Below are positions 62,601 through 64,000 of a stretch of 64,000 nucleotides of DNA, one piece after another. Positions within the stretch are counted from its first letter, which is position 1; each line of letters opens with the position of its first letter. A program made the position numbers. The stretch comes from Escherichia coli (GTDB lineage: Bacteria > Pseudomonadota > Gammaproteobacteria > Enterobacterales > Enterobacteriaceae): NCBI RefSeq assembly GCF_013315695.1, contig NZ_CP054353.1; one strand, written 5' to 3'.

Positions 62601-64000
62601 CGCCCAGCACCAGACCAAACGTTGCACAGGCCATCGCCACTTCTGTCGCGTTGGTGAAGCCATAACGTTCAATGAACAATTTACTCCATGCAGCACCCGT
62701 ACCGTGACCGCCGGAAAGCGTAATAGAACCGGCCAACAGCCCCATCAGCGGATCAAGCCCTAACAGGCTAGCCATACCAATGCCAATGGCATTTTGCATC
62801 ACCAACAAACCAACAACCACAATCAAGAAGATGCCAACCACACGCCCACCGGCACGCAAACTGGCAATGTTGGCGTTCAGGCCAATGGTGGCGAAGAAAG
62901 CCAGCATCAACGGATCGCGCAGGGACATATCAAAGTTGACTTCCCAGCCCATGCTTTTTTTCAGTATCAGCAGCGCCAGCGCCACTAATAAACCACCCGC
63001 AACAGGTTCCGGTATGGTGTATTTCTTCAAAAAGGAGACGGAATGGACCAACTTGCGCCCGAGCAGCAACGTCAGCGTTGCGGCAACAAGCGTTGCTAAA
63101 GTATCGAGATGAAACATAGTTACTCCTTTGTGTCCGCATCACTCTTTCATACTCGTCATACTTCATCGCGCATTTGCAGTAAGGCGAAATATGACGAGTA
63201 TCGAGTCATGCTTTCCTGGTTCGAATTCTTCGCTGAAAATAGAAAAATGGCATGGATTTTAAGCAGAAAACAACTAAAAGTTATATAAAAAAGTACATTT
63301 ATCTCATTTAAATATTTAGATGAGGATGTAGCAAACGTTTGCTTTTCTTTTTCGGTCAGCTAAAATGCCCGCTTTGCTACCACGGGATTGTTTTCGATGT
63401 CTGTTTCCACCCTCGAGTCAGAAAATGCGCAACCGGTTGCGCAGACTCAAAACAGCGAACTGATTTACCGTCTTGAAGATCGTCCGCCGCTTCCTCAAAC
63501 CCTGTTTGCCGCCTGTCAGCATTTGCTGGCGATGTTCGTTGCGGTGATCACGCCAGCGCTATTAATCTGCCAGGCGCTGGGTTTACCGGCACAAGACACG
63601 CAACACATTATTAGTATGTCGCTGTTTGCCTCCGGTGTGGCATCGATTATTCAAATTAAGGCCTGGGGTCCGGTTGGCTCCGGGTTGTTGTCTATTCAGG
63701 GCACCAGCTTCAACTTTGTTGCTCCGCTGATTATGGGCGGCACAGCGCTGAAGACCGGTGGTGCTGATGTTCCTACCATGATGGCGGCTTTGTTCGGCAC
63801 GTTGATGCTGGCAAGTTGTACCGAGATGGTGATCTCCCGCGTTCTGCATCTGGCGCGCCGCATTATTACGCCGCTGGTTTCTGGCGTTGTGGTGATGATT
63901 ATCGGCCTGTCGCTAATTCAGGTGGGGCTGACCTCCATTGGCGGCGGTTACGCAGCCATGAGCGATAACACCTTCGGCGCACCGAAAAATCTGCTGCTGG

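What the first reader, a model, noticed from the sequence alone, without database searches (positions are those of the whole stretch)
63329..63344. PurR-box palindrome upstream of xanP
Seen in sequence: gcaaacgtttgc is a perfect match to the palindromic core of the PurR operator consensus and sits about 55 bp upstream of the xanthine permease start. This is consistent with purine-repressor control of xanthine uptake.
Basis: partly seen in the sequence, partly recalled or inferred. Interest (0 to 1): 0.25.

Follow-up and report, generated by a model that had tools for sequence, protein, structure and literature searches.

The report
Known PurR operator upstream of xanP
The palindrome is the already documented binding site through which the E. 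coli purine repressor PurR shuts off the xanthine transporter gene xanP, so the finding is correct but ordinary; a second, very conserved PurR-like palindrome inside the start of the gene is the only part that may be new.

Summary
GCAAACGTTTGC is at 63331-63342, unique in the window. It lies inside the 16-bp box TAGCAAACGTTTGCTT (63329-63344), which starts 68 nt before the ATG (63397) of a gene whose first 201 residues are identical to E. coli K-12 XanP. A leave-one-out weight matrix from 27 published PurR ChIP sites scores the box at 15.4 bits. That is the best hit in 64 kb, and 8 of the 27 validated sites score lower. Cho et al. 2011 (PMC3159470) report a PurR ChIP-chip peak at K-12 xanP with motif TGGCAAACGTTTGCTT, which differs by one base. 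They also report about 20-fold repression by adenine and a 30.8-fold purR-deletion effect. A RegulonDB paper classes the site as strong evidence. The box keeps the same place in all 81 Enterobacteriaceae orthologues examined, and its right half supplies a -35-like TTGCTT 16 bp from a conserved TAAAAT. This strain's A at box position 2 is rare (15 of about 5300 E. coli genomes). Extra: a perfect palindrome GCGCAACCGGTTGCGC in xanP codons 11-16 (63427-63442) scores 14.5 bits and shows almost no synonymous variation. It is a candidate second, intragenic PurR operator, and I found it in no held paper.

The parts
63329..63344 (.). PurR operator O1: the 16-bp PUR box TAGCAAACGTTTGCTT
   Evidence: Scores 15.4 bits on the leave-one-out PWM and is the best hit in 64 kb. 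It is 15/16 identical to the ChIP-bound K-12 xanP motif and to the purMN operator. It is present in 81/81 orthologous loci.
63331..63342 (.).
   Evidence: Single exact match in the window, 0.01 expected by chance.
63330..63330 (+). Rare allele: A at box position 2, where K-12 and about 99.5% of E. coli have G
   Evidence: Only box difference in the alignment with K-12. The window's 49-mer is exact in 15 genomes and the K-12 49-mer in 5278 of about 5305. It costs about 1.8 bits of PWM score.
63339..63344 (+). -35-like hexamer TTGCTT lying in the right half of the operator (inferred)
   Evidence: Invariant or nearly so across 80 distinct orthologous sequences, and 16 bp upstream of the conserved TAAAAT. 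Only 3/6 match to TTGACA, so the promoter scan did not call it. No TSS data were found.
63361..63366 (+). -10-like hexamer TAAAAT (inferred), preceded by an invariant G at 63359
   Evidence: Nearly invariant in the phylogenetic footprint, while the spacer 63347-63355 varies.
63397..64000 (+). 5' part of xanP (xanthine:H+ symporter), which runs off the end of the window
   Evidence: 201/201 residues identical to K-12 XanP. RefSeq annotation of the region agrees.
63427..63442 (.). Candidate second PurR operator O2: perfect 16-bp palindrome GCGCAACCGGTTGCGC in xanP codons 11-16
   Evidence: Scores 14.5 bits, the second-best hit in the window. Recognisable at +30 in 80/81 orthologues. Synonymous variation is 0.09 bits against a gene mean of 1.04, the lowest in the gene. 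There are no compensatory changes that would support an RNA stem. PurR binding itself is not demonstrated.
61912..63117 (-). gltS, the divergent neighbour that shares the intergenic region (context only)
   Evidence: ORF list and RefSeq annotation.

Best explanation
The 16-bp box at 63329-63344 is the operator through which the hypoxanthine/guanine-bound PurR dimer represses xanP. It is a strain variant of the site already mapped in E. coli K-12. The box overlaps the inferred core promoter: its right half carries a -35-like TTGCTT, followed by a 16-bp spacer and a TAAAAT -10. Bound PurR should therefore block RNA polymerase and switch off xanthine uptake when purines are plentiful. Shown here: the sequence, the PWM score, the conservation and the allele frequency. 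Shown in the literature for K-12: in vivo PurR occupancy and PurR- and adenine-dependent repression. Inferred: the promoter hexamers, the TSS (about 63373, which would put the box at about -44 to -29), and that the A allele still binds PurR.
For: The core is exact and unique in the window. The leave-one-out PWM gives 15.4 bits, the top hit in 64 kb, and 8 of 27 validated sites score lower. The K-12 site TGGCAAACGTTTGCTT lies in a PurR ChIP-chip peak (log2 2.08 with adenine, 1.36 without), and xanP falls 20-fold with adenine and changes 30.8-fold on purR deletion. RegulonDB classes the site as strong evidence, yicE was already in PurR regulon lists in 2008, and xanP belongs to the PurR-1 iModulon. 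The box is at -68 in most of 81 orthologous loci and present in all of them. GCAA.CG.TTGCTT is nearly invariant (one locus has A at position 15). The other changes are at positions 1, 2, 7 and 10, and positions 2, 7 and 10 are low-information positions of the matrix. A at position 2 also occurs in the validated cvpA-purF and gcvT operators and in the xanP boxes of several other genera, including Citrobacter, Trabulsiella and Buttiauxella. The footprint shows the box and a -10-like element as conserved islands.
Against: No binding or expression data exist for this exact allele. The A at position 2 lowers the score by about 1.8 bits and is rare in E. coli. The consensus promoter scan called no sigma-70 promoter in the region, and I could not retrieve a mapped TSS, so the occlusion geometry is inferred. 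ChIP-chip resolution (the peak is 1.37 kb wide) cannot separate this box from the second palindrome 98 bp downstream.
Confidence: 0.93

Rival explanations
1. The box controls the divergent gene gltS, instead of or in addition to xanP.
For: The box lies in the shared gltS-xanP intergenic region. A 2008 regulon-evolution paper lists gltS next to yicE under PurR.
Against: The box ends 211 nt from the gltS start codon but overlaps the conserved -35/-10-like elements that face xanP. Cho et al. assign the peak to xanP only and do not name gltS among the responsive genes. The gltS listing probably just reflects the shared intergenic region.
Confidence: 0.07
2. The palindrome is bound mainly by another LacI/GalR-family repressor that recognises a similar AACGTT-centred operator, and PurR is incidental.
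For: LacI-family operators share the central A-A-C-G-T-T architecture (own knowledge).
Against: The GCAA/TTGC arms fit a matrix built only from PurR ChIP sites at 15.4 bits. PurR was immunoprecipitated at this locus, and purR deletion alone changes xanP 30.8-fold.
Confidence: 0.02
3. It is a chance palindrome with no function.
For: A 16-mer within 3 mismatches of the ideal consensus is expected 0.62 times per 64 kb.
Against: The exact 12-mer is expected 0.01 times. A PWM score this high is expected 0.0008 times in the intergenic region. The box is conserved in 81/81 loci while the flanking DNA varies. ChIP and expression data support function.
Confidence: 0.01
4. Concerning the extra intragenic palindrome (63427-63442) only: it acts as an mRNA hairpin (7-bp stem, 4-nt loop) that affects xanP mRNA stability or translation, not as a PurR operator.
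For: The hairpin forms in the minimum-free-energy fold of the 5' mRNA region. The stem columns are almost invariant. The scan flagged it as a stem-loop followed by a T-run on the minus strand.
Against: There are no compensatory changes, and all 14 departures break pairs, mostly at the outer stem. The 'loop' CpG is essentially invariant even though its G is a four-fold degenerate Pro codon position. The frequent G-to-A change at position 10 is non-synonymous (Val to Ile) and raises the PurR score to about 16 bits, reproducing the AACCGATTGC core of the purB and guaBA operators. The region's folding energy is ordinary (z = -0.42) and no Rfam family matches it.
Confidence: 0.25

Closest known systems
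E. coli K-12 MG1655 xanP (yicE) PurR binding site, from Cho et al. 2011 NAR (PMC3159470) and curated in RegulonDB
   Same: Same locus, same position (-68 from the ATG) and 15 of 16 bases identical (TGGCAAACGTTTGCTT versus TAGCAAACGTTTGCTT). The downstream sequence as far as the ATG is identical except for one spacer base.
   Different: Box position 2 is A here and G in K-12 and in about 99.5% of complete E. coli genomes. No experiment has been done on this allele.
E. coli purMN operator (TCGCAAACGTTTGCTT)
   Same: 15 of 16 bases identical to the window box, and some Citrobacter xanP boxes are identical to it. Both overlap the core promoter.
   Different: The geometry differs. At purM the box lies between a -35-like TCGCAA and a TAGAAT -10 that follows 7 nt after the box. 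At xanP the right half of the box is itself the -35-like element, 16 bp before TAAAAT. The hexamer assignments at both promoters are my inference.
Downstream or intragenic PurR operators of purB and purR (own knowledge: He et al. 1992; Rolfes and Zalkin 1990)
   Same: The candidate O2 lies inside the coding region downstream of the promoter, as does the purB operator. Its common variant shares the AACCGATTGC core with the purB and guaBA operators listed by Cho et al..
   Different: PurR binding to O2 is untested. The E. coli version has a CCGG centre (C at 7 and G at 10 together), which none of the 27 listed sites has. Pairing with a promoter-overlapping O1 98 bp upstream is not the purB arrangement.

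Membership tests
PurR operator (PUR box) of the E. coli PurR regulon: box O1, 63329-63344 | 16-bp imperfect palindrome matching ACGCAAACGTTTGCGT with a central CpG, scoring within the range of validated sites | tested here: met
   15.4 bits on a symmetrised matrix built from 27 published sites with xanP excluded. Validated sites score 9.7-23.9 and 8 of them score lower. Best hit in 64 kb.
PurR operator (PUR box) of the E. coli PurR regulon: box O1, 63329-63344 | Located in the promoter region of a gene for nucleotide metabolism or nucleobase transport | tested here: met
   The box starts 68 nt upstream of xanP (100% identity to K-12 XanP over 201 aa) and overlaps conserved -35/-10-like elements. 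The promoter assignment is inferred, not mapped.
PurR operator (PUR box) of the E. coli PurR regulon: box O1, 63329-63344 | Conserved in position and sequence in related genomes | tested here: met
   Present in 81/81 Enterobacteriaceae loci, with variation confined almost entirely to positions 1, 2, 7 and 10.
PurR operator (PUR box) of the E. coli PurR regulon: box O1, 63329-63344 | Occupied by PurR in vivo or in vitro | not testable with these tools
   Published for the K-12 allele, which differs by one base: ChIP-chip log2 enrichment 2.08 with adenine and 1.36 without. Not measured for this allele.
PurR operator (PUR box) of the E. coli PurR regulon: box O1, 63329-63344 | Downstream gene repressed in a purR- and purine-dependent way | not testable with these tools
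   Published for K-12: 20.1-fold down with adenine and a 30.8-fold effect of purR deletion. xanP is also in the PurR-1 iModulon.
PurR operator (PUR box) of the E. coli PurR regulon: box O1, 63329-63344 | The genome encodes PurR | not tested
   purR lies outside this window. By own knowledge it is a core E. coli gene, and the window matches E. coli chromosomes.
Intragenic/downstream PurR operator (purB-type): candidate O2, 63427-63442 | PUR-box match with a central CpG | tested here: met
   14.5 bits, or about 16 bits for the common A variant. Expected 0.0015 times within +-150 bp. Seven of the 27 validated sites score lower.
Intragenic/downstream PurR operator (purB-type): candidate O2, 63427-63442 | Nucleotide conservation beyond what the encoded protein requires | tested here: met
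   Codons 11-15 have a mean codon entropy of 0.09 bits against a gene mean of 1.04. All of the lowest 5-codon windows among 359 overlap the box, and the next lowest elsewhere is 0.41. The flanking codons vary even in amino acid.
Intragenic/downstream PurR operator (purB-type): candidate O2, 63427-63442 | PurR occupancy and a contribution to repression | not testable with these tools
   The 1.37-kb K-12 ChIP-chip peak covers both boxes but cannot resolve them, and Cho et al. list one motif per region. No held paper contains the O2 sequence.

The most novel reading that the evidence does not exclude
xanP is controlled by two PurR operators. One is the known promoter-overlapping box. The other is a previously unlisted intragenic box in codons 11-16 (63427-63442), 98 bp downstream. 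That second box is held nearly invariant at synonymous sites across Enterobacteriaceae and could act as a roadblock or second occupancy site. This would help explain why xanP is among the most strongly PurR-repressed genes (20- to 30-fold).
Probability: 0.45. Interest if true: 0.35.

Novelty: already known. Interest (0 to 1): 0.12.

Why it matters
The finding itself matters little. Two small additions may be useful. First, this strain carries a rare allele in the operator flank (A at position 2, about 0.3% of complete E. coli genomes), which may slightly change repression strength. Second, the intragenic palindrome is a clear case of a coding segment constrained at the DNA level. If it is a second PurR operator, it refines the model of how nucleobase uptake is shut off, and it is easy to test with a synonymous CpG-destroying mutation.

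Tried and rejected
(1) Simple consensus matching of the 16-mer with up to 3 mismatches is not significant (0.62 expected per window), so I replaced it with a PWM built from published sites. (2) The consensus sigma-70 scan found no promoter, because TTGCTT matches only 3/6. The promoter placement therefore rests on the phylogenetic footprint. (3) The search for a mapped xanP TSS failed. The Thomason dRNA-seq paper is not held, and the Cappable-seq and SMRT-Cappable-seq supplements held as text contain no entry for xanP or its coordinates. The Shimada constitutive-promoter paper mentions xanP only in the xanP-yicH interval. (4) The Cho et al. supplements are not held, so I could not check gltS expression. 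(5) The protein search meant to reach more distant XanP orthologues listed only hits at 90% identity or above, apart from one partial match at 84%, and the single genome-contig scan kept only the 80 best loci. Conservation outside Enterobacteriaceae is therefore untested. (6) Rfam found no RNA family in 63050-63600. (7) The RNA-hairpin model for the intragenic palindrome shows no covariation and an ordinary folding z-score. It is not supported but not excluded either. (8) The purMN promoter geometry was compared as a possible template and turned out to differ.

Full report
**Observation.**
The 12-mer GCAAACGTTTGC is at 63331-63342 and occurs once in the window, where dinucleotide shuffles give 0.01. 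The reported interval 63329-63344 is the full 16-bp box TAGCAAACGTTTGCTT. The downstream ORF starts at ATG 63397, so 54 nt separate the 12-mer from the start codon and the 16-mer begins at -68. The ORF's 201 residues inside the window are 100% identical to E. coli K-12 XanP. The 321 bp around the site match 5423 of 5426 complete E. coli genomes, where RefSeq annotates gltS (divergent) and xanP. The coordinates, the palindrome and the gene assignment are therefore all correct.

**Is it more than chance?**
- Against the idealised consensus ACGCAAACGTTTGCGT the 16-mer has three mismatches, and a match that loose is expected 0.62 times per window. That test alone is uninformative.
- I built a weight matrix from the 27 PurR motifs in Table 1 of Cho et al. 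2011, leaving out xanP. The box scores 14.8 bits in the published orientation and 15.4 bits symmetrised.
- It is the best hit in the 64-kb window, and 8 of the 27 validated sites score lower.
- The exact probability is 2.7e-6 per position, which gives 0.18 expected per window and 0.0008 in the 279-bp intergenic region.

**What is already known.**
- Cho et al. 2011 (PMC3159470) list a PurR ChIP-chip peak at xanP in K-12 MG1655 with the motif TGGCAAACGTTTGCTT. The peak is present with adenine (log2 2.08) and without it (1.36).
- They report xanP down 20.1-fold on adenine addition and changed 30.8-fold by purR deletion, and they name xanP as a new direct PurR target.
- A RegulonDB evidence paper classes the xanP PurR site as strong evidence (PMC3548332).
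- A 2008 comparative paper already lists yicE under PurR (PMC2329645).
- Later iModulon work places xanP in the PurR-1 module (PMC8376909).
- The alignment with K-12 shows the window's box differs only at position 2 (A for G, 63330). Downstream to the ATG there is one further difference, in the spacer.

**Conservation and geometry.**
One scan of species-representative genomes returned 80 xanP loci from Escherichia, Citrobacter, Salmonella, Enterobacter, Klebsiella, Raoultella, Kluyvera, Buttiauxella and others.
- In all of them, and in K-12, the best upstream PWM hit is the same box, at -68 in most loci and at -67 to -80 in the rest.
- GCAA.CG.TTGCTT is nearly invariant (one locus has A at position 15). 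The other variation is at positions 1, 2, 7 and 10, and positions 2, 7 and 10 are low-information positions of the matrix.
- A at position 2 occurs in the xanP boxes of several other genera, including Citrobacter, Trabulsiella and Buttiauxella, and in the validated cvpA-purF and gcvT operators.
- The per-column footprint shows two conserved islands in otherwise variable DNA. One is 63331-63346. The other is TAAAAT at 63361-63366, preceded by an invariant G at 63359.
- I read this as a -35-like TTGCTT (63339-63344, inside the right half of the box), a 16-bp spacer and a -10. The TSS would then be near 63373 and the box at about -44 to -29, so bound PurR would occlude the promoter.
- This geometry is inference. 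The consensus promoter scan called nothing, and I could not retrieve a mapped TSS.
- It agrees with Cho et al.'s general statement that PurR motifs lie over the -10 and -35 elements.
- The near-identical purMN operator also overlaps its promoter, but in a different register.

**The allele.**
The window's 49-mer around the box is exact in 15 complete E. coli genomes. The K-12 49-mer is exact in 5278 of about 5305. The strain therefore carries a rare G-to-A change at box position 2 that costs about 1.8 bits. I expect at most a modest effect on binding, but this is untested.

**A second element, outside the reported coordinates.**
The second-best PWM hit in the window is GCGCAACCGGTTGCGC at 63427-63442. 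It is a perfect 16-bp palindrome in xanP codons 11-16, 98 bp centre-to-centre from the first box. It scores 14.5 bits, and a hit that strong is expected 0.0015 times within +-150 bp.
- It is recognisable at +30 in 80 of 81 orthologues.
- A codon alignment shows codons 11-15 have a mean codon entropy of 0.09 bits against a gene-wide mean of 1.04. All of the lowest 5-codon windows among 359 overlap the box, and the next lowest elsewhere is 0.41.
- The flanking N-terminal codons vary even in amino acid. The nucleotide sequence itself is therefore under selection.
- The common variant, G to A at position 10, is non-synonymous (Val to Ile). It raises the PurR score to about 16 bits and reproduces the AACCGATTGC core of the purB and guaBA operators.

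The rival reading is an mRNA hairpin.
- The hairpin does form in the minimum-free-energy fold.
- However, the region's folding z-score is -0.42, no Rfam family matches it, and there are no compensatory changes. All 14 departures break pairs.
- The would-be loop CpG is essentially invariant although its G is a four-fold degenerate position.

I therefore favour a second, intragenic PurR operator, with probability about 0.6 that PurR binds it. By own knowledge this resembles the downstream operators of purB and purR. Binding is not shown. The ChIP-chip peak of 1.37 kb covers both boxes but cannot resolve them. No held paper contains the O2 sequence, but that does not prove databases such as RegPrecise lack it.

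**Rivals for the main box.**
- Control of gltS instead of xanP is unlikely. The box ends 211 nt from the gltS start and sits on the elements facing xanP.
- Binding by another LacI-family regulator is contradicted by the PurR ChIP and by the purR-deletion effect.
- Chance is excluded by the conservation.

**Verdict.**
The rare operator allele and the candidate intragenic second operator are the only additions. The second operator is the most novel reading that the evidence does not exclude.

Noticed in passing
window 63427-63442: Perfect 16-bp palindrome GCGCAACCGGTTGCGC inside xanP codons 11-16. It is the second-best PurR PWM hit in the window (14.5 bits), is nearly invariant in 80/81 orthologues, and has almost no synonymous variation. 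It is a candidate second PurR operator, with an mRNA hairpin as the rival reading.
   Followed up: yes
window 63330: A at position 2 of the PurR box, where K-12 has G. The window's form is exact in only 15 of about 5300 complete E. coli genomes, against 5278 for the K-12 form.
   Followed up: yes
window 63149-63164 and 63186-63201: 16-nt inverted repeat (94% complementary, 21 nt between the arms) in the gltS-proximal part of the intergenic region, probably the gltS leader. The densest block of differences from K-12 falls between the two arms and runs slightly into the right arm's first bases, while the rest of the arms is largely conserved (one further difference in the right arm).
   Followed up: no
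window 63303-63324: AT-rich near-palindrome CTCATTTAAATATTTAGATGAG ending 4 nt upstream of the PurR box. It is identical in K-12 but only about 40-60% conserved per column across genera, so it is probably not a shared regulatory site.
   Followed up: partly
window 63118-63296: The gltS-xanP intergenic region is polymorphic within E. coli. Over 321 bp, 4198 of 5423 genomes are only 90-95% identical to the window. The differences from K-12 cluster in the gltS-proximal half, while the xanP-proximal 100 bp are almost fixed.
   Followed up: partly
L079 (Buttiauxella MAG) 1531-1546, with upstream box at -68: This is the only orthologue in which the intragenic palindrome is destroyed (GCACAACCTGCTGCGT). 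It shares the highest-scoring upstream box of the set (ATGCAAACGTTTGCTT, 19.4 bits). That might be compensation, but it is a single case.
   Followed up: no
window 29258-29987: Four weak PurR-matrix hits (10-13 bits) cluster within about 730 bp inside the kbl coding region (threonine to glycine pathway, next to tdh). About 4 hits at 10 bits or above are expected per 64 kb by chance, and this region is not in the published PurR ChIP list, so it is probably chance.
   Followed up: partly
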